A stretch of DNA of 64,000 nucleotides, from positions 5,536,001 to 5,600,000 of the forward strand of contig OZ252100.1 in assembly GCA_965248435.1 (NCBI GenBank), in the 5' to 3' direction. This stretch comes from Candidatus Latescibacterota bacterium. GTDB taxonomy: Bacteria; Latescibacterota; UBA2968; GCA-2709665. The notes beneath the pieces are model-generated. The model searched no databases. It had not been told where the DNA came from and worked only from the letters and a program-made list of their open reading frames with translations. Made by a program: the position numbers and the translations under genes. The number at the start of each line of letters is the position of its first letter. The stretch's first letter is position 1. Below are positions 5,863 to 16,214 of the stretch, in pieces.

Positions 5863-6301
5863 TAGTGAGGGAACGGAGGAAGGGCTGTCTCCTAGAGAGT
5901 TTCGAGGCTACCTTGAAGGCATCGAATTGGTGGGGATCAGCCTCAAGAGCCTCTCGGCTCAAGTAAACGATGAGCTGCGCGGCGAGAGGGTTGGTGGTGT
6001 CAATTTCAAGGACTCCCAAGAATATGCGCAGTTCGAAGGTGGATTCAAAATCAGATACACTGGCACCTTGTCGGTTCGAGCTAAAAGGAAGGTCTTTGTA
6101 AAGATCCAGACCGTCTATGAGCTTGATTTTACCTCACGTGCGGATCTTCCCGATGGCTTTTTTCAAATTTACATGCAAGAATCTCTGCCTCTTCAGGTCT
6201 GGCCGTTTGTGCGTCAAACATTCTACGATATTACTGCCCGTATGAATCTCCCAACCCTGACACTTCCGCTTCGCAAAACGTCAGGAATCGGATCCCGCTA
6301 G
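5792..6301 (+). CDS. SecB-like chaperone (third gene of a TAC module); start uncertain
   Basis: SecB C-terminal signature VWPFVRQTFYDITARMNLPTLTLP, preceded by four beta-strands; overlaps the hicB end. Confidence 0.8.
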   Translation: MGMKMPKNRTNPTTAQPLECKQPSSEGTEEGLSPREFRGYLEGIELVGISLKSLSAQVNDELRGERVGGVNFKDSQEYAQFEGGFKIRYTGTLSVRAKRKVFVKIQTVYELDFTSRADLPDGFFQIYMQESLPLQVWPFVRQTFYDITARMNLPTLTLPLRKTSGIGSR

Positions 6302-10186: not shown

Positions 10187-10365
10187 AAAGGGAAGTTTCT
10201 CAGAGGCACCCCATCCAAGACAGACCGAGGTGGATTTTCGATGAAAATCGCGACGCTCGTGCAGGGTTTTGAGATTCCGTGGGAAGGGAAGGCTGAACCC
10301 GCAGGCACGCCGAGGGTAGGGTGTGGGAGTATGAGAATTACAGTCGTTCTTGTCTCAAATCGCGA

Positions 10366-10465
10366 TGTCCAAAAAACCTCATCGAAATCCCCTGCGTAAC
10401 TACCTGAATTTACTCAGTCCATTTTTTTTGAATCTGATGTCCAACAAACTGATGAATTGTGGACA
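10366..10465. promoter_or_regulatory. res-like site of the serine resolvase
   Basis: TGTCCAAAAAAC at 10366 and inverted pair TGTCCAACAA...TTGTGGACA at 10438-10465 immediately upstream of the resolvase. Confidence 0.55.
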
Positions 10466-10484
10466 CCCCGAAGGAGGAGGAGCC

Positions 10485-11066
10485 ATGGACAGAAAAAGAA
10501 AGCGGGCGGCAATATACGCTCGCGTATCCACCCGCGACCAAGATCCCGACCTTCAGCTCAGAGAACTGGAATCATATGCTGAAAACAGGGGATTCGAGGT
10601 CGTAGGCCCCTTTGCAGACCGTGAGAGCGGCACCAGCACAAATCGTGAGGAACTGAACCGGCTCTGGAAGCTGGTGAGAGCGCGGAAGGTGGATTTGGTG
10701 CTCGTCTGGAAGTTCGACCGATTCGCCAGATCCATGAAGCAGCTCGTCGATGCGCTCGAGGAGTTTCAGCACCTGGGGGTGGACTTCGTGAGCCTGACGG
10801 AGCAGATCGATACATCCTCTCCAGCGGGCAAGTTGGTGTTTCACGTTATGTCGGCTATCGCAGAGTTCGAAAGGGAGTTGATCTCAGAGAGGGTCCGAGC
10901 CGGTATAGCGAAGGCTAGGGCACAAGGGAAGGTTCTTGGTAGGCCGAGGATTGATGAGAAGGTGGCTGAAGAGATACGCAGGCTGCATAGGCAAGAGAAA
11001 CTCAGCCTGAGAGAGGTAGGAAAGAGGCTATCAGTGTCGAAAAGTACTGTTGAGAACTATGCTTAG
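10485..11066 (+). CDS. Small serine recombinase (resolvase/invertase)
   Basis: AAIYARVST catalytic Ser, VWKFDRFARS, AEFERELISER, GRP plus C-terminal HTH; RBS GGAGGAG before ATG 10485. Confidence 0.93.
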   Translation: MDRKRKRAAIYARVSTRDQDPDLQLRELESYAENRGFEVVGPFADRESGTSTNREELNRLWKLVRARKVDLVLVWKFDRFARSMKQLVDALEEFQHLGVDFVSLTEQIDTSSPAGKLVFHVMSAIAEFERELISERVRAGIAKARAQGKVLGRPRIDEKVAEEIRRLHRQEKLSLREVGKRLSVSKSTVENYA

Positions 11067-11564: not shown

Positions 11565-12278
11565 TCAATCCATGTGTGAGCGAACGATGTGAGTGAACTC
11601 CGACCAGTCGCGTACCTCCGCATCAGCGGCATCAGAAAGTGGTCCGCCTGAGGTAGACTGATCAGGGTTATACCAAATTGACCATAGCCCGGCGGATCTT
11701 GCTCCGGCGATGTCAAACTCTGGGCTATCTCCGCAAAACCAAGCTTGATGTGAACCTATGTGGAGCTTGGCAATCGCTACCTCAAAGAGGAGCGGATGGG
11801 GCTTCCGTATCCCGTAGTCCGCACTCGACAAGACAAATGAAAACGCATCCTTCAGACCGTGCCGTTGGAGTTCCCATTCCAGGACCGGTCCAGAAAAGGG
11901 ATTGTTGCTTACCACTCCCATCTTGATTTTCAGTAGCTTCAGCTCGTCCAGAGCGTAAACTATCCCAGGTTCGGGACTGTAGCGCACTGCTCCCTTCCAA
12001 AACTCCAATTCCATCTCCGAGAAAGAGAGGTTGAATCTGAGTCCGAGTTTATCGAATAGAATCCGCTGAAACGCCTGAACTGGAAATTCAACCATCCCGA
12101 GTAGATTCTCTACCCTAGAGTCCAATCGGTCTGCCTCTTCTTGGACTTCCTTTCCCGTCAAAACGTTAGGAGGGATTGCGAAATCAAGAAGCCTGGCGTT
12201 GCCAGCTTCGGGATCAAACCGGCGGTTACCGAGGATGGTGTCATGAAAGTCGAAAAGGATGGCGACCGGACGGTCCAT
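11565..12278 (-). CDS. HAD-family hydrolase (gene cassette)
   Basis: ILFDFHDT, VVSNN, RKPHP, GDSPEFDIAGA; starts just after attC R' GTTACGC; R'' remnant GCCCAAT at 11544-11550. Confidence 0.88.
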   Translation of the reverse strand: MDRPVAILFDFHDTILGNRRFDPEAGNARLLDFAIPPNVLTGKEVQEEADRLDSRVENLLGMVEFPVQAFQRILFDKLGLRFNLSFSEMELEFWKGAVRYSPEPGIVYALDELKLLKIKMGVVSNNPFSGPVLEWELQRHGLKDAFSFVLSSADYGIRKPHPLLFEVAIAKLHIGSHQAWFCGDSPEFDIAGARSAGLWSIWYNPDQSTSGGPLSDAADAEVRDWSEFTHIVRSHMD

Positions 12279-12381
12279 CACTTTGGATTTCCAGAGAAGA
12301 TTGAGTGACAATGCCGCGTAACGTTCTCGGGCCTTTGCGAACCCCGAAGGGGTTGTGCGAAGGTGCGACTGCACCGAGCCG

Positions 12382-13220
12382 GTAGGGTCAAGGAATGGCG
12401 CGCCAACATTAGGGTTCGGTGGCTATTCCAATGCTTTCGCATTGGGCCTCAGTCCGGCTCCCATCGTCACGGTTCCATCCCCTGCCACTTCAAACCGTAC
12501 GTGAGGTTCTCCCTCATACGGCTTTCCGACAACCTATCCTCCTGAGGCATTCGAGGTTTCAGACCCTTCAGTCCTTCACAGCCTGCCACATCAGGCCAGA
12601 CCGAAAGTCCTTTCCCCCTTGACACTCAGGTATAGCCTGCGCTGGAGTTGTCGTGAGCTTGTGGTTCGGTGTGGTTGGACCCGATCCTGTCGGGCCATGC
12701 ACCATCACTTACCTCCCCGCTCGGCACGGTTAAAGCAGAGGTCCTTCCCTCCGGTGCAGTTATGTTGTCTACACCATCACAGGTAATATGACCTCCTCCG
12801 ACTTCTCACACGGCATCCCTCCAGACTTCACGATTCGTCGCTTATACCAGAGGTCACGGAAGCTGTGGGCCTCCGACCGTATGAGACCTCCCTTGTTCCA
12901 CCACCAACTGTACCCACATTCCGCTCCCCCTACGCCGGGGAGTCCTTCGAGGCTGCATCTCCAGAGTCTTCGCCTCTTCCATGGCCTTCGCGTCCGTGCG
13001 ATCGCTCGGCTCTCCCTGGTTCCCATTATCGGGGCTAACATATCGACGCTGCAGGATTCCCTTTATGGTACGGACTGCAGGGTTGCACCTCCTTCACAGA
13101 GGCATACTCCGCTTCAGCACACCCGGTCACCCGGAAGCACTGGGAGCTCGCTACTCGGCTCTCTGGCGATTACCGAGACCGGACTTTCACCGGCAAGTTG
13201 ATGATGACTTCAAGGCACAC
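12382..13220 (-). ncRNA. Group II intron, ORF-less (IEP deleted), 839 nt
   Basis: 5' GTGTG; domain V AAGCCGTATGAGGGAGAACCTCACGTACGGTT; long domain VI ending CCCTAC; EBS1 CGCACGG (12994-13000) complementary to the exon end CCGTGCG. Confidence 0.9.
12591..12698 (-). pseudogene. Stub of the intron-encoded reverse transcriptase
   Basis: GGAGG, then MARQDRVQPHRTTSSRQLQRRLYLSVKGERTFGLA*; RQLQRRLY resembles the IEP N-terminus; no YADD. Confidence 0.7.
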
Positions 13221-13262
13221 CGCACGGGCGTGTTATGCGAAGCTGGCGAGTTCGCGTGCGAC

Positions 13263-13880
13263 CTATTTAGGACGCCACTTCAGAGAGTTCTTCTTGAGAA
13301 GGTTCTTTGCATCCTCAAGCATCTGATTTACGCCTTCGACAGCATCTATTCTTGCCGAACTCCGTAGTGCTTCGCTTATAGGAGGACGCCAATCTTTGCC
13401 GCTAGTACCGAGGGCAACTGCTTTTTGGACGGCCAATTTGTAGTTTTGCCGTATGTGTTCGAAGTGATTCTTGCAGTGTATGCGGCAATCGCGCGGATGA
13501 AATCCAGCGAACTCTTTGCCTTCTGACGTCTCGATGATTCTGAGCAGTACATCGTCAGGAATGCTGGACATATCACTCCAGCTCTGATGTGGAAGACCCG
13601 GAAGGCTTGGTAGTCTGCCAGTACTCGTATCGTCAGCGGCTTCCGCAGCCTTCTTAAGGGTTCTGAGACCGACCTGCACCTCCTCCTGTATTGACTCCAG
13701 AATTGCTACTCCTAGTTTGCTATAGGTTCGTCGTCGTCGCCACTCTCCGAGCCGGTCAACCGCAATGTAAGTCACTAGTGCGACGAGTATGGGGAGAAGC
13801 ATCTTCTCCAGAAAGAACACCAGTCCTACCGGCAGCAGGTTTTGTGTGGCTCTAAGAGTATCTAGCGTTGCAGTGTCCAT
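13263..13880 (-). CDS. Hypothetical membrane-anchored cassette protein
   Basis: ATG 13880 inside the cassette boundary; single N-terminal TM segment. Confidence 0.75.
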   Translation of the reverse strand: MDTATLDTLRATQNLLPVGLVFFLEKMLLPILVALVTYIAVDRLGEWRRRRTYSKLGVAILESIQEEVQVGLRTLKKAAEAADDTSTGRLPSLPGLPHQSWSDMSSIPDDVLLRIIETSEGKEFAGFHPRDCRIHCKNHFEHIRQNYKLAVQKAVALGTSGKDWRPPISEALRSSARIDAVEGVNQMLEDAKNLLKKNSLKWRPK

Positions 13881-13920
13881 TCGGATCACCTGAATCCATG
13901 TAGAGTCTTGCGCCAGTTTC

Positions 13921-14014
13921 GCATAACGTTCCCGCCACTTGCGAACCTGCCTATGGCGGGTTGCCGTCAGGCCAAGGCGCGAATGCGCCGGAGCCGCAGC
14001 CCGTCGTGTTATAG
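13921..14014 (-). repeat. attC site
   Basis: R'' CTATAAC ... GGGAAC-GTTATGC R', 94 bp with internal hairpins. Confidence 0.8.
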
Positions 14015-14067
14015 GCCGTGCCAACCCTAGTCGTATCTGAGAACTCGGCGTGGAGGATCAGTAAGTT

Positions 14068-15132
14068 CTAGAAGAAATATCTTAGAACTGATGTAGCTGA
14101 TTGATTGCACCAAAATTGCGCTATCAAATAGTCTTTGCTTCTCGCATCGAGATTATACGGTTGGTATCTGAGTATAGAACTCAGAGCAAAGGAGAACAGG
14201 TAGTCCGAAAGCAGTGGATGCCAGCGGATTGTAGATCCAGCCAACTCGACAGGGAAGGTGAACAACCAGTAGTGATCAGCGACACTGTCATAGACCGTTG
14301 GAATGGCGTAATCCGACAACTCTCTTGCTGCATCGCTCCTTACCTGTTTCATCGCCGTGGCTCGTGTCGATTGGGTGTAGGCAATGGCTTTGCCTCGGAC
14401 GATGGAATTCCGTCCGAGAAGTATAGCATTGACACGAAATGAATCCAGCCAGTCCTGCCTATCGAAATCCGTAACGCGCCTGCGGTCAACTATCGATAAA
14501 AAGGATCCCAAAGGAGACGATAGCATGCGTTGAGCGTTAGTCTTGTCCGCAAGCATCTCGAACCAGCATTCCTGATTGTTAAGTCGGAGAAGTGACTGAG
14601 TGCGAAAGACGTCCGGTGTAATCTTGTGCAGCTTGTGCAGTTCATCAGAAATATCGTTGCAATGACCAAGCACCTCCTTTAGGCTGATTCTAATACTACT
14701 CCTGTGTGGCCATTTTGTAGATGTTAGAGCCTGGTACATATGAGAGAACACATTCTCGCCTCTTTTTGTCGACGGCGGATGGATTTCCAGCTCATAGTCA
14801 GGAATGGTCACGGCACTCTGGACCGGAGCCCTCAATCCATGTAGTATGGACGCCGTCACGATCTTCTTGAAAGAAAAGACCTTCTTCAGCACCAGGAACG
14901 CTTTGGATAGGTTGAGGAAACTGTAGTAATAGAGTAGCCCGCCAGTTCGCCAGTTCGCTTTTCGCGCATCAAGGAAATACGTGCAGGCTTGATCAATGAG
15001 CGGACTTATGTTGCGCGGTTTCCTTGTATGGCGCAACATTACCAATTGCTGGCAGACCTGCTCAACGATGTCCTGAGATGTTATAAGGTTCTCAACAGGC
15101 TTGGATAGGGGAAAGTAGAGCTGAAACGCCAT
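14068..15132 (-). CDS. YaaC-family protein (gene cassette)
   Basis: LLYYYSFLNLSKA, HGL and FALSSILRYQP motifs. Confidence 0.75.
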   Translation of the reverse strand: MAFQLYFPLSKPVENLITSQDIVEQVCQQLVMLRHTRKPRNISPLIDQACTYFLDARKANWRTGGLLYYYSFLNLSKAFLVLKKVFSFKKIVTASILHGLRAPVQSAVTIPDYELEIHPPSTKRGENVFSHMYQALTSTKWPHRSSIRISLKEVLGHCNDISDELHKLHKITPDVFRTQSLLRLNNQECWFEMLADKTNAQRMLSSPLGSFLSIVDRRRVTDFDRQDWLDSFRVNAILLGRNSIVRGKAIAYTQSTRATAMKQVRSDAARELSDYAIPTVYDSVADHYWLFTFPVELAGSTIRWHPLLSDYLFSFALSSILRYQPYNLDARSKDYLIAQFWCNQSATSVLRYFF

Positions 15133-15174
15133 AGCTTTGCTTCTTATTTAAGAAGAGATCCTGGTTGGCATGGC

Positions 15175-15337
15175 CTATAACGTTCTCGGGCTTTTGCGAA
15201 CCTTGCCGACCTGCGAAGCAGGCTGGCAAGCGGGTTGCCCTGATGTTCTCCCCCTTAACGCAAACCCGCGTGACAGAGGCAAGGTTGCCAGAGGCCGGAG
15301 GGAGCGAAGCGACTGGAGCGAAAAGCCCGTGTTAGCA
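15175..15337 (-). repeat. attC site
   Basis: R'' TGCTAAC-ACGGGCTTTTCGC ... GCAAAAGCCCGAGAAC-GTTATAG; stem with one extrahelical base; 163 bp. Confidence 0.88.
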
Positions 15338-15411
15338 GAAGTCGCATCTGCCCGCCTCTCTCTGGCCAAAAGATCAGGGCGAGAATAAAACGCGCTCGAT
15401 TGCCGTGGTTT

Positions 15412-16044
15412 TTACTTCTGTTTTTGCTGTATGAAATGCCGACTGATCTCCGAAGCAGCGTGCTCTGCAAGCTCCTCTGGTGGTCGTAGGCCGTCCACCA
15501 CCAAGTCCGCATTTGCACCTACCTGTTGCTGCCGAGTGTAAAAATAGTGAAGTCCCACCTCCAAATATCTACGTAGACTGGCAATAGCATCCGCGCCGTT
15601 CGACGCATCTCTCAATACCATTCGCGCAAGGGCGACATCAAGGGGAATGTCGATATGCACAACGTAGTCAATCAAAGGGCGAACTTCATCTCGGTCGCGT
15701 CCCCAAGGCTCCTCTAAGAGAATGAACGGTGCCGGCTTGACACTTCTGCATCCGTGATCTGGTGGTTGGACCGACTGGCCCTCTTTCAGTACTCGAAGGT
15801 CTGCGGCTAGTTTTGGGACAGTGAGACGCTGGTTTGGATCCCCACCATCCTCAAGCCACCGGAGGAAACTGTTCTCCACGGGTTCGTCGTCGTCATAGGC
15901 CGAGAACCATTTTTGAACCGAATTGTAGGTGTCTAAGTATAGAACCGTGGAATCTGTCATTAGCTCATGAATTTTCCCAACAAGAGTCGTCTTTCCTGCA
16001 CCAGCAGGTCCGCTTACCACAATCACATGACTTTTACTATCCAT
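15412..16044 (-). CDS. P-loop kinase, uridine-kinase-like (gene cassette)
   Basis: VVSGPAGAGKTT, ILLEEP, DIPLDVALAR, ADLVVDG. Confidence 0.8.
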   Translation of the reverse strand: MDSKSHVIVVSGPAGAGKTTLVGKIHELMTDSTVLYLDTYNSVQKWFSAYDDDEPVENSFLRWLEDGGDPNQRLTVPKLAADLRVLKEGQSVQPPDHGCRSVKPAPFILLEEPWGRDRDEVRPLIDYVVHIDIPLDVALARMVLRDASNGADAIASLRRYLEVGLHYFYTRQQQVGANADLVVDGLRPPEELAEHAASEISRHFIQQKQK

Positions 16045-16128
16045 TGTTAAAATTTTCCAAAAAGGTGATTGCTGGTTTTCTTGGTTTTGCGCGTTGTGGT
16101 GTCTTTCTCGGTAGGGTGGGGCGATTTC

Positions 16129-16214
16129 TGCTAACGTTCTCGGCACCCACGAACCCGCGGAGCGGGTTGGGCGAAGGGGCGGAAGCCCCGGAGCCGTGGG
16201 TGCTCGTGTTAGCC
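16129..16214 (-). repeat. attC site
   Basis: R'' GGCTAAC-ACGAGCACCCACG ... CGTGGGTGCCGAGAAC-GTTAGCA; 86 bp. Confidence 0.88.

What the first reader, a model, noticed from the sequence alone, without database searches (positions are those of the whole stretch)
12316..13238. ORF-less group II intron that appears to target the attC top strand by base-pairing with the R'' box
Seen: an 839-nt intron co-oriented with the cassettes, inserted 11 nt after R''; removing it restores attC spacing; looped EBS1 CGCACGG matches the exon end 7/7; a candidate EBS2 (TGTTAGC, 13034-13040) is complementary to GCTAACA, the R'' of two neighbouring attCs, and 5/6 to ATAACA here; the IEP is cut to 35 codons. Known: group IIC-attC introns insert in the bottom strand, antisense to cassettes, and lack EBS2. 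Inference: a different (class E/F-like, long DVI), non-autonomous intron lineage that reads the conserved attC core by RNA pairing, splices out of the array transcript and blocks excision of this cassette. The two attC halves pair poorly, so they may be chimeric.
Basis: partly seen in the sequence, partly recalled or inferred. Interest (0 to 1): 0.8.

Follow-up and report, generated by a model that had tools for sequence, protein, structure and literature searches.

The report
Orphan intron splitting an integron attC
A group II intron that has lost its own protein gene sits inside an integron-type recombination site, and its relatives in other bacteria sit at the same spot of other such sites, which points to a so far undescribed intron lineage that homes to these sites by RNA base-pairing.

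Summary
An 839-nt group II intron (window 13220 down to 12382, minus strand) lies sense to four minus-strand cassette ORFs. It splits an attC-type repeat 11 nt after its R'' box. Homologs fix both splice sites, and EBS1 (CGCACGG) pairs 7/7 with the exon end.

It is a deletion derivative of a 1987-nt intron whose protein has reverse-transcriptase and maturase domains and no endonuclease domain. The window's genome holds no intron RT and no second intron, so the copy is an orphan.

The main new result concerns its clade. It was examined at 18 distinct insertion sites. TAAC lies 9-21 nt upstream at 14 of them, and a conserved attC 3' arm lies downstream at 7. The sister clades give 0 of 28 for both features. 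Insertion is always at the L''/loop junction, and IBS1 is the 3' half of L''.

The proposed EBS2-R'' pairing (UGUUA/UAACA) is plausible. The motif is unpaired and sits where relatives carry EBS2. It is not proven: there is no covariation, and Leptospira relatives also keep the motif. Splicing, blocked cassette excision and class E/F membership are untested.

I rate it a new variant of a known kind, attC-homing introns, which were known for class IIC on the opposite strand.

The parts
12382..13220 (-). ORF-less group II intron, 839 nt (5' GUGUG at 13220-13216, 3' ..GACCCUAC ending at 12382)
   Evidence: Rfam hits. Boundaries come from alignment with 12 other copies. EBS1/IBS1 pairing supports the 5' end.
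13063..13196 (-). Domain I core matching Rfam group-II-D1D4-4
   Evidence: 82.7 bits against a cut-off of 49.
13035..13040 (-). Candidate EBS2, UGUUAG. It is complementary to R'' (C)UAACA.
   Evidence: Unpaired in the 3-sequence consensus fold (columns 179-187). Mean unpaired probability is 0.60-0.74. It is conserved in L071, L077 and L025. The pairing with R'' is inferred.
12994..13000 (-). EBS1 loop, CGCACGG
   Evidence: It pairs 7/7 with the exon end. The loop covaries with the exon end across clades.
12568..12708 (-). Remnant of the intron-encoded protein gene (N-terminal codons, frame-shifted) and the deletion junction in domain IV
   Evidence: window nt 1-594 and 665-839 match L077 nt 1-589 and 1814-1987. 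The translated frames match the start of the L077 protein.
12492..12524 (-). Domain V with the AGC triad
   Evidence: Rfam RF00029 and the alignment.
12386..12486 (-). Long branched domain VI with a bulged A at 12388, 7 nt from the 3' splice site
   Evidence: Consensus folds. Across 21 sequences, 15 of 31 pairs show changes on both sides.
13221..13238 (-). 5' arm of split attC a: R'' GCATAAC (13238-13232), spacer ACG, L''/IBS1 ..CCGTGCG (13227-13221)
   Evidence: and comparison with the family consensus.
12316..12381 (-). Rest of split attC a: two small hairpins, L' CGCAAAGGCC, spacer CGAGAAC, R' GTTACGC (12322-12316)
   Evidence: (repeat D5).
13920..14015 (-). Neighbouring attC-type site b
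15175..15336 (-). Neighbouring attC-type site c
16129..16214 (-). Neighbouring attC-type site d
11565..12277 (-). Cassette ORF downstream of the split site (HAD-family hydrolase). The ATG lies 38 nt after R'.
13263..13899 (-). Cassette ORF upstream of the split site, with no Pfam family. Its own attC is the split one.
14068..15132 (-). Cassette ORF, YaaC-like

Best explanation
The element is a stranded, ORF-less copy of a mobile group II intron lineage that homes to integron-type attC sites on the strand that carries the cassette genes.

Shown:
- The ribozyme is complete: 5' GUGUG, domain V, and a long domain VI with a bulged A.
- Its EBS1 loop pairs with the last 7 nt of the 5' exon, which is the 3' half of the attC L'' box.
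- The intron sits exactly at the L''/loop junction.
- Relatives, with and without a reverse-transcriptase/maturase gene, occupy the same register of other attC sites.
- The copy lost positions 590-1813 of a 1987-nt ancestor.
- Its sister copy in another family shares this deletion and differs by many compensatory changes. The RNA fold has therefore been kept since the ORF was lost.
- This genome encodes no intron RT.

Inferred:
- The RNP reads the whole 5' arm of attC as RNA-DNA duplexes. EBS2 would pair on R''/spacer and EBS1 on L'', in effect standing in for the R'-L' arm, and +1 C would be IBS3. It then reverse-splices in without an endonuclease.
- The present copy is removed from the cassette transcript by self-splicing or a host factor.
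- On DNA, the extra 839 bp between L'' and L' hampers folding of this attC. The upstream cassette and the HAD cassette would then behave as one unit.
For: Intron identity and ends.

EBS1-IBS1:
- In a fixed register, 16 of 18 clade sites pair at 6/7 or better.
- The other two pair 6/6 (L071) and 5/5 (L077) one nucleotide off (read by eye).
- Four different clade EBS1 loops each match their own exons. Sister-clade loops do so too, for example ACAACCGGA with TCCGGTTGT.
- Shifted control: 1.0% of 396 positions reach 6/7.

attC specificity:
- In the clade, TAAC lies at -21..-9 in 14 of 18 sites, the conserved 3' arm is present in 7 of 18, and both in 6 of 18. Other clades give 0 of 28 for each.
- Four more decayed copies of the window's sub-clade have ATAAC, CTAAC or ATAAT 10-15 nt upstream.
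- The first 3'-exon base is C in 17 of 18 sites.

One origin is possible: the clade is one side of a branch with support 100/99.

attC nature of the repeats:
- There are four sites in the window, with GAACGTTA found 4 times on the minus strand against 1.26 expected on both strands.
- Arrays of the same family occur in a related genome, with ORFs on the same strand.
- The sites fold end to end.
- Two related genomes have bona fide integron integrases.

ORF loss. Protein domains RVT_1 and GIIM only.

Orphan status: one copy of the intron, one D1D4-4 hit and one domain V hit. GIIM gives 0 hits, the L077 protein 0, and tblastn with 3 intron proteins gives one spurious hit at E 0.9.

Fold kept:
- Of 173 pairs, 39 are compensatory among 3 sequences.
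- Window against L071: 30 of 242 pairs changed on both sides, against 0-3 with slid partners.
- Domain VI: 15 of 31 pairs.

EBS2 position: in the sister clades the hypervariable stretch after CGAAAGU matches their exons (GUGCG/CGCAC, UGCAA/UUGCA, UAUGG/CCAUA). In the window UGUUAG is unpaired.
Against: - No integron integrase above the curated cut-off in this genome, so the array is a cluster of attC sites without an integrase and recombination is not shown.
- The spacer asymmetry of these sites (3-4 nt on the 5' arm, 6-7 nt on the 3' arm of the gene-sense strand) is the reverse of a bona fide integron in a related genome and of the Vibrio repeat as I recall it. 'Top strand' therefore rests on ORF direction alone.
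- TAAC is absent from the scored window at 4 of 18 clade sites (L036, L043, L087, L117; L043 has CAAC plus the 3' arm); by eye L036, L087, L117 and L098 are not attC-like.
- EBS2: only 5 bp, and no covariation is possible among the three sub-clade members. The other sub-clade pairs 4-5 of 6 with an A-A mismatch and a register that moves by 1-2 nt. Leptospira plasmid relatives keep UGUUAG although no attC context is seen there.
- No RNA evidence for splicing.
- The intron's sense strand is the leading-strand template. As I recall, this is not the preferred side for endonuclease-less introns.
- The phylogenetic class is undetermined.
Confidence: 0.75

Rival explanations
1. Dead relic. The intron is an immobile, non-splicing fossil left in a decaying attC, with no present role. 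The 7/7 EBS1 match only records the old insertion event.
For: No intron RT in a 97.5%-complete two-contig genome. The copy is single. The attC around it pairs poorly. No spliced or empty-site form appears in the contigs of four runs. Two other decayed copies of the same sub-clade exist in a related genome that has no match to the one related intron protein used as query.
Against: Every catalytic landmark is intact. In domain VI, 30 of 31 pairs are canonical in the window copy. The lineage kept its fold through 21% divergence after the ORF loss, with 30 changes on both sides against 0-3 in slid controls. These points date selection to the past, not necessarily to this copy.
Confidence: 0.3
2. 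Hitch-hiking. The introns recognise only a short IBS1. The attC association arises because copies travel with cassettes or because attC DNA is often single-stranded, not because R'' or L'' are read as such.
For: L'' is the only part shown to pair. TAAC sits at a distance that varies from -13 to -17. Non-attC sites with a good IBS1 exist (L036, L087, L117).
Against: One 749-nt intron with one EBS1 sits in at least 11 different sites of one genome, next to different cassettes, so the copies arose by insertion and not by cassette copying. Three non-attC-like sites still keep partial EBS2 complementarity: L036 UCACA, L087 UGACA, and L098 one nucleotide off; L117 has only 3 bp (read by eye). Sister clades give 0 of 28.
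Confidence: 0.3
3. The repeats are not integron attC sites but another family of palindromic cassette-flanking repeats served by a Xer-like recombinase. The intron would then home to that element.
For: No integron integrase in this genome. In one related genome, an array with this repeat lies beside a 312-aa recombinase that scores 230.7 bits on the integron-integrase model (cut-off 265) and lacks the middle part of that model. The spacer asymmetry is reversed.
Against: The sites have YTAAC...GTTAR termini and R and L boxes. Each cassette start is complementary to the R'' of its own site (pairs I7 and I10). They form arrays of short co-oriented ORFs, each followed by a site. Two genomes of the clade's host group have true integron integrases.
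Confidence: 0.15
4. It is an ordinary group IIC-attC intron.
For: It lies in an attC site and its relatives' protein has no endonuclease domain.
Against: It lies on the gene-sense strand and inside the site, at the L''/loop junction. The ribozyme is about 700 nt, with 7-bp EBS1 pairing and an EBS2-type loop. It matches Rfam D1D4-4. The literature describes IIC-attC introns as antisense, in the bottom strand, using the hairpin as an upstream motif (PMC7923331 section 11; PMC4424553 passages).
Confidence: 0.02

Closest known systems
Group IIC-attC introns (e.g. S.ma.I2)
   Same: Group II introns whose natural targets are integron attC sites, and whose protein has no endonuclease domain.
   Different: IIC-attC introns insert in the bottom strand, antisense to the cassettes. 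They use the attC hairpin as the upstream stem-loop plus a short IBS1 (PMC7923331 section 11; PMC4424553 passages). Here the intron is sense to the cassettes, sits inside the site at the L''/loop junction, has 6-7 bp of EBS1 pairing on L'' and a candidate EBS2, and carries a large IIB-like ribozyme with a roughly 100-nt domain VI.
Group IIB introns near integrons (UHB.I2, class CL1) and class E fragments H.ha.F1/F2 in a Halorhodospira attC cluster (Sonbol & Siam 2021, PMC7923331)
   Same: Non-IIC introns, co-oriented with cassettes and associated with attC arrays that lack an integrase. Their authors already speculated about a role for the attC top-strand hairpin.
   Different: Those are single cases. 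UHB.I2 lies just downstream of an attC and its flanking exons are not conserved. The H.ha copies are 5'-truncated, so no insertion register is known (sections 7, 11, 12). Here one clade shows a fixed register in 14-18 independent sites, with EBS1/L'' covariation.
Unusual IIC intron in the attC top strand in Enterobacter cloacae (Rodriguez-Martinez et al. 2012)
   Same: Sense orientation within an attC.
   Different: It is a class C intron and a single case. I know it only from the sentence and the reference in PMC7923331; I did not read the paper.
C.te.I1 of Clostridium tetani, an ORF-less intron in a genome without any intron protein
   Same: An ORF-less bacterial group II intron with no related protein gene in the genome, which is described as the rare exception (PMC4424553 passages).
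   Different: C.te.I1 lies in a surface-layer protein gene and is shown to self-splice. Here splicing is untested and the host site is a recombination site between genes.
ORF-less introns mobilised in trans and twintrons (Thermosynechococcus, Methanosarcina)
   Same: Short derivatives multiply beside a related protein-coding copy. One related genome has at least 11 copies of a 749-nt derivative and one related protein gene. Sister clades sit inside other introns.
   Different: In this clade the targets are attC sites, not intron ORFs or housekeeping genes. The comparison with those organisms is recalled, apart from the listing of PMC2882425.

Membership tests
Group II intron ribozyme | Domain V and domain I core recognised by curated covariance models | tested here: met
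   RF00029 scores 43.2 bits (cut-off 40) and RF02003 scores 82.7 bits (cut-off 49).
Group II intron ribozyme | 5' GUGYG, 3' AY, and a bulged A in domain VI 7-8 nt from the 3' end | tested here: met
   GUGUG at 13220..CUAC at 12382, bulged A at 12388 in a helix that covaries.
Group II intron ribozyme | EBS1-IBS1 pairing with the 5' exon | tested here: met
   7/7 in the window. In the clade, 16 of 18 sites reach 6/7 or better, against 1.0% in the shifted control.
Group II intron ribozyme | Splicing activity | not testable with these tools
   Contigs of 2 DNA-like and 2 RNA runs show no joint across 12382-13220. Contigs cannot show absence.
Group IIC-attC introns | Insertion in the attC bottom strand, antisense to the cassettes | tested here: not met
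   The intron and all four cassette ORFs are on the minus strand. The same holds in related arrays.
Group IIC-attC introns | Class C ribozyme: small domain I, no EBS2, target is a stem-loop followed by a short IBS1 | tested here: not met
   The ribozyme is about 700 nt. A hypervariable EBS2-type stretch covaries with exons in sister clades. Insertion is within the 5' half of the palindrome, not after it.
Bacterial class E or F introns (IEP phylogeny) | The protein clusters with reference class E/F proteins | not testable with these tools
   No reference set with class labels was on hand. The FADD motif given for the g2 group of the former class F (PMC3552965) is absent: relatives have YADD.
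Bacterial class E or F introns (IEP phylogeny) | The protein lacks the D/En region | tested here: met
   Relatives' proteins of 436-460 aa hit only RVT_1 and GIIM.
Integron attC site | Imperfect palindrome with R'' (..YAAC) and R' (GTTR..) ends and paired L boxes, folding end to end | tested here: met
   Sites c, d and the joined site a fold end to end; site b does not in the minimum-energy fold. Family consensus.
Integron attC site | Arrays of mostly promoterless co-oriented ORFs, each followed by a site, with cassette ends complementary | tested here: met
   The window has 4 ORFs and 4 sites. Inverted pairs I7 and I10 link cassette ends. Related arrays.
Integron attC site | Extra-helical bases on the R''-L'' arm of the top strand | tested here: not met
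   The extra bases are on the L'-R' arm of the gene-sense strand. This is the opposite of a bona fide array in a related genome.
Integron attC site | Recombined by an integron integrase; called by the IntegronFinder attC model | not testable with these tools
   The attC model is not in Rfam. There is no integrase over the cut-off in this genome.
CALIN (cluster of attC sites lacking an integrase) | Two or more attC sites with no integron integrase nearby | tested here: met
   Four sites lie at 12316-16214. The best TIGR02249 hit in the whole genome is 104 bits, against a cut-off of 265.
Orphan ORF-less bacterial intron (C.te.I1-like situation) | No intron-encoded protein gene anywhere in the genome | tested here: met
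   The genome is 97.5% complete in 2 contigs, so a small gap cannot be excluded.

The most novel reading that the evidence does not exclude
attC-arm mimicry. This would be an endonuclease-less, IIB-like intron lineage whose EBS2 and EBS1 imitate the R' and L' boxes of attC. The RNP would pair with the R''-L'' arm in place of the site's own 3' arm and reverse-splice at the L''/loop junction of the gene-sense strand.

The lineage would spread through cassette arrays. It would favour, or create by co-conversion of the 5' exon from a donor attC, sites whose two halves no longer match. It would leave self-splicing ORF-less copies that are invisible to gene expression but lock neighbouring cassettes together.
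Probability: 0.35. Interest if true: 0.85.

Novelty: new variant of a known kind. Interest (0 to 1): 0.7.

Why it matters
Group II introns are reported to have three target strategies: long homing sites, terminators and attC sites. The attC strategy is credited to class C alone (PMC4424553 passages).

A second, unrelated lineage that reaches attC by ordinary EBS/IBS pairing, on the other strand, would show that integron sites were colonised twice by different mechanisms.

It would also give a natural example of a retargetable intron that reads a structured recombination site. And it would add a sense-oriented, potentially splice-neutral way to fuse or freeze cassettes in chromosomal arrays.

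The orphan copy here is also a candidate second case of a bacterial intron that must splice without any intron-encoded protein.

The claims are directly testable with standard E. coli mobility and splicing assays.

Tried and rejected
Alternative boundaries. The GTGCG at 13225 and Rfam's 3' end at 12408 are rejected. Conservation runs on to 12382, and no complement of 5 nt or more to the alternative exon end exists in the intron.

Empty site. I looked for an uninterrupted copy of the upstream cassette in 168 genomes of the phylum. Only two 25-40 nt chance-level matches came back. No intron-less joint appears in the contigs of runs X1 and X2.

RNA evidence. Runs X20 and X23 hold contigs of a roughly 93% relative and no joint, so nothing can be said about expression or splicing.

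Replication idea. I expected the intron on the lagging-strand template. dnaA at 3.08 Mb and the GC skew put the intron's sense strand on the leading-strand template, so the idea is not supported.

Strand labelling from a true integron. The array beside the integrase of one related genome has a different attC type and the opposite spacer asymmetry. No array was seen in the 16 kb upstream of the other integrase. This could not settle top against bottom. My own simple attC finder was too strict: it found only site d in the window.

More members of the window's sub-clade.
- The metagenome scan gave 3 loci, none in an attC context.
- A scan of 93 genomes of the phylum of locus L077 gave only L077 itself.
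- The plasmid collection gave only Leptospira relatives. Their repeated unit starts about 75 nt upstream of the expected 5' end, and no GUGYG is present there. They could not be used to test EBS2.

Class assignment. It was not possible. The papers gave class properties but no sequences. The supplementary files of PMC7923331 and PMC3552965 were closed and may hold the exact insertion registers and class alignments.

No structure or complex prediction was run.

Literature searches for a described non-IIC attC-homing lineage were (72, 10 and 4 papers; listings only, except the papers named as read). Searches concerned intron classes.
Full report
WHAT IS THERE.

Rfam places a group II intron on the minus strand. 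The domain I core (group-II-D1D4-4) lies at 13196->13063 with 82.7 bits, and domain V at 12526->12408 with 43.2 bits.

The surrounding ORFs are also on the minus strand:
- a HAD-family hydrolase, 12277->11565
- an ORF with no known family, 13899->13263
- a YaaC-like ORF, 15132->14068
- a P-loop protein, about 16100->15412

Between them lie four related imperfect palindromes, given here in minus-strand reading:
- a: 13238..13221 plus 12381..12316
- b: 14015->13920
- c: 15336->15175
- d: 16214->16129

They share a 5' YTAAC-ACG and a 3' GGTTCG..N..GAGAACGTTA. GAACGTTA occurs on the minus strand four times, once in each site. The window has 6 matches on both strands against 1.26 expected.

Each ORF starts 20-41 nt after one site and ends 20-52 nt before the next. 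The start of each cassette is complementary to the R'' of its own site (pairs I7 and I10). This is the architecture of integron cassettes.

No integron integrase passes the curated cut-off anywhere in the 5.67-Mb, 97.5%-complete genome. The array is therefore a cluster of attC-type sites without an integrase.

BOUNDARIES.

BLAST of the intron against 168 genomes of the same phylum found relatives in 12 other genomes. A pattern scan of the species-representative genome collection returned the capped 80 loci from many phyla.

Alignment of 13 copies shows conservation from GTGYG to ..GGCGCGCCA...CT.GACCCTAC and none beyond. Rfam's 3' end at 12408 falls inside a long domain VI.

That domain is about 100 nt, with a GNRA hairpin and a GGCGCGCC element. 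Its consensus fold has 31 pairs, and 15 of them show changes on both sides across 21 sequences. The window copy keeps 30 of the 31. An A at 12388 is bulged 7 nt before the 3' end.

The alternative start GTGCG at 13225 has no complementary stretch of 5 nt or more in the intron.

EXON RECOGNITION THAT IS SHOWN.

The loop aligned in all copies after GCCGAG/GCCGAC differs between lineages, and each version matches its own 5' exon end:
- window: CGCACGG with CCGTGCG
- L071: GCACGG with CCGTGC
- the 749-nt element: CGTAAAC with GTTTACG or GTTTGCG
- the 1987-nt element of L113, L114 and L116: CGTGAAT with ATTCCCG, GTTCACG and GTTCGCG
- a sister clade: ACAACCGGA with TCCGGTTGT

In a fixed register, 16 of 18 distinct sites of the window's clade pair at 6/7 or better. 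The two others pair 6/6 and 5/5 one base off; I mis-typed their register in the script. In the control on the same exons shifted 8-29 nt upstream, 1.0% of 396 positions reach 6/7. The first 3'-exon base is C in 17 of 18 sites.

THE LINEAGE HOMES TO attC-TYPE SITES.

The copies fall into groups. In a ribozyme tree two sub-clades together form one side of a branch with support 100/99:
- the window's sub-clade: window, L071 and L077
- a second sub-clade: the 749-nt and 1987-nt elements that start GTGCGCC or GTGTGCC

I scored every distinct insertion site for TAAC at -21..-9 and for the conserved 3' arm within +130. The clade gave 14 of 18, 7 of 18, and both in 6 of 18. All other clades gave 0 of 28 for each. 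By eye at least nine clade sites are complete attC-type sites, and L036, L087, L117 and L098 are not attC-like.

Four further decayed or truncated copies of the window's sub-clade have ATAAC, CTAAC or ATAAT 10-15 nt upstream.

Arrays of intact sites in a related genome give the family consensus YTAAC-AGCAC-GGTTTGCG | CTGCGGCGC..GCGCC-TTGGCCTTCGGC-AACCCGC..GCGGGTT-CGCAAACCGG-CATAAC-GTTAY, with the ORFs on that same strand. The bar marks the insertion point. It is the junction between L'' and the variable loop.

IBS1 is therefore the 3' half of L''. The EBS1 of the 749-nt element (CGUAAAC) is almost the sequence of L' (CGCAAAC).

Two genomes that carry these introns encode bona fide integron integrases, at 366.7 and 351.7 bits against a cut-off of 265.

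THE EBS2 QUESTION.

In the sister clades a hypervariable 6-7 nt stretch lies in a single-stranded segment between a GGCC/GGCC helix and the EBS1 stem. It is complementary to the exon 2-3 nt upstream of IBS1: GUGCG with CGCAC, UGCAA with UUGCA, UAUGG with CCAUA. That locates EBS2 for the family.

In the second attC sub-clade the stretch is GUGUAA. It pairs 4-5 of 6 with U(A)ACAC or GCAC just after R'', in a register that shifts by 1-2 nt.

In the window's sub-clade UGUUA(G/A) is complementary to UAACA of R'' in all three members with known exons. It is unpaired in the three-sequence consensus fold (173 pairs, 39 compensatory). Its mean unpaired probability is 0.60-0.93, against 0.38-0.43 overall.

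Against the claim:
- The pairing is only 5 bp.
- Both partners are invariant, so there is no covariation.
- A 5'-truncated relative (L025) and the Leptospira plasmid relatives also keep UGUUA. The Leptospira protein is 62.9% identical to that of L077. I could not define a 5' boundary or an attC context for them.

I put the EBS2-R'' pairing at about even odds.

ORIGIN OF THE WINDOW COPY.

Window nt 1-594 and 665-839 match nt 1-589 and 1814-1987 of L077. That intron carries a 436-aa ORF with RVT_1 and GIIM domains, a YADD motif and no endonuclease domain. The window retains only the first codons of the ORF, frame-shifted.

L071 is an 827-nt copy in another family. It aligns with the window end to end at 79% identity, including across the deletion, so the ORF was lost before the two diverged. 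Between them, 30 of 242 consensus pairs changed on both sides while staying paired, against 0-3 when partners are slid. The consensus was derived from these same two sequences, which favours it; the slid control is the fair comparison.

The window's genome has one intron copy, one D1D4-4 hit and one domain V hit. It has no GIIM domain, no match to the L077 protein, and only one spurious tblastn hit at E 0.9 with three intron proteins.

By contrast, the genome with at least 11 copies of the 749-nt derivative has one related protein gene at 82% identity. This fits the published rule that ORF-less bacterial introns live beside a helper (PMC4424553 passages). The window copy is an exception of the kind so far described for C.te.I1.

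THE SPLIT SITE.

With the intron removed in silico, site a pairs at its R boxes but not at its L boxes. Its fold z-scores are -1.3 and -2.7, against -4.1 and -4.9 for site d.

The same holds more widely. The L''-L' duplex energy averages -5.9 kcal/mol in 7 occupied sites and -9.5 in 15 unoccupied ones (one-sided Mann-Whitney p 0.004). The sites are not independent, and two 'unoccupied' calls are doubtful.

Three explanations remain open: decay after disruption, a preference for weakly paired L'', or co-conversion of the 5' exon from a donor attC.

WHAT IS NOT SETTLED.

- 'Top strand' here means the strand of the cassette ORFs: 4 of 4 in the window and at least 10 in related arrays. The spacer asymmetry of this attC family is the reverse of that in a bona fide integron of a related genome.
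- The intron's sense strand is the leading-strand template (dnaA at 3.08 Mb, GC-skew minimum there).

COMPARISON WITH THE LITERATURE.

Reviews and the 2021 survey state that attC targeting is a property of class C introns, which lie antisense in the bottom strand (PMC4424553 passages; PMC7923331 sections 11 and 12). They note single exceptions:
- a IIC intron in the top strand in Enterobacter cloacae
- a CL1 intron just downstream of an attC
- two 5'-truncated class E fragments in a Halorhodospira attC cluster

My searches found no description of a non-IIC clade with a fixed insertion register inside attC. I therefore file the finding as a new variant of a known kind.

NOTE ON SOURCES.

- PMC7923331: abstract, sections 7, 11 and 12, and passages.
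- PMC4424553 and PMC3552965: passages only.
- All other papers: search listings only.
- The Vibrio repeat rule, the RmInt1 strand preference and the Thermosynechococcus and Methanosarcina comparisons are recalled from memory.

Noticed in passing
L052, L074, L075, L090, L099, L119, L123, L126 (Nitrospirales records); L055, L128 (Vicinamibacterales); L130; L014/L016 = L125/L086: Sister-clade introns (start GTGTGTCC) sit right after a sequence that reads as domain V of another group II intron (e.g. AAGCCGTGTAGGGGAAAACCATACGCACGGTT|). They are followed by what looks like that intron's domain VI. These are nested introns with a fixed register.
   Followed up: partly
L051, L100, L101: Head-to-tail tandem intron copies: ..GACCCTAC is directly followed by GTGCGCC or GTGTGTCC of the next copy.
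   Followed up: no
window 13920-16214 and L142-L144: This attC family has a short spacer (3-5 nt) between R'' and L'' and a long one (6-7 nt) between L' and R' on the gene-sense strand. This is the reverse of the asymmetry in a bona fide integron array of a related genome (L138:5098-5153, 6132-6229).
   Followed up: partly
occupied sites L043, L057, L065, L071, L091, L116 and the window, against 15 intact sites: attC sites that carry an intron have weaker L''-L' pairing than intact ones (-5.9 against -9.5 kcal/mol). In several of them L'' pairs better with the intron's EBS1 than with its own L'.
   Followed up: partly
G000:C1:1448658-1449452 and five further places: Six copies of a 314-aa tyrosine recombinase gene in the window's genome. 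They score 104 + 93 bits on the integron-integrase model and lack its middle part. This is probably a multi-copy mobile element.
   Followed up: no
window 7900-28100: The array lies in a region rich in mobile and defence-like genes: a SIR2-like ORF, IS3-type HTH fragments, a serine resolvase (10350-11066), a GIY-YIG-like ORF, an endonuclease/exonuclease/phosphatase, RmuC, a UvrD-type helicase with a HigB-like N-terminus, and a 779-aa N6/N4 DNA methylase.
   Followed up: no
L145 (Leptospira interrogans plasmid record) 902-2927: Leptospira plasmids carry a relative of the window's sub-clade with an intact ltrA (62.9% identical to the L077 protein). There is no GUGYG at the expected 5' end, and the repeated unit starts about 75 nt further upstream.
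   Followed up: partly
runs X20, X23 laid on window 12639-13248: Two metatranscriptome runs of another study hold contigs of a roughly 93% identical intron. One contig runs on through the same 28 nt of 5' exon. Another has a different EBS1 loop, so at least two related copies exist there.
   Followed up: no
L053, L054, L062, L066 and others (one Spirochaetia record): An 818-nt ORF-less derivative of a sister clade is present in many copies at at least four different sites of one genome, beside 2000-nt protein-coding copies.
   Followed up: no
L047:3700-3970: A sister-clade intron has an internally duplicated 3' end: about 80 nt of domain VI is repeated.
   Followed up: no
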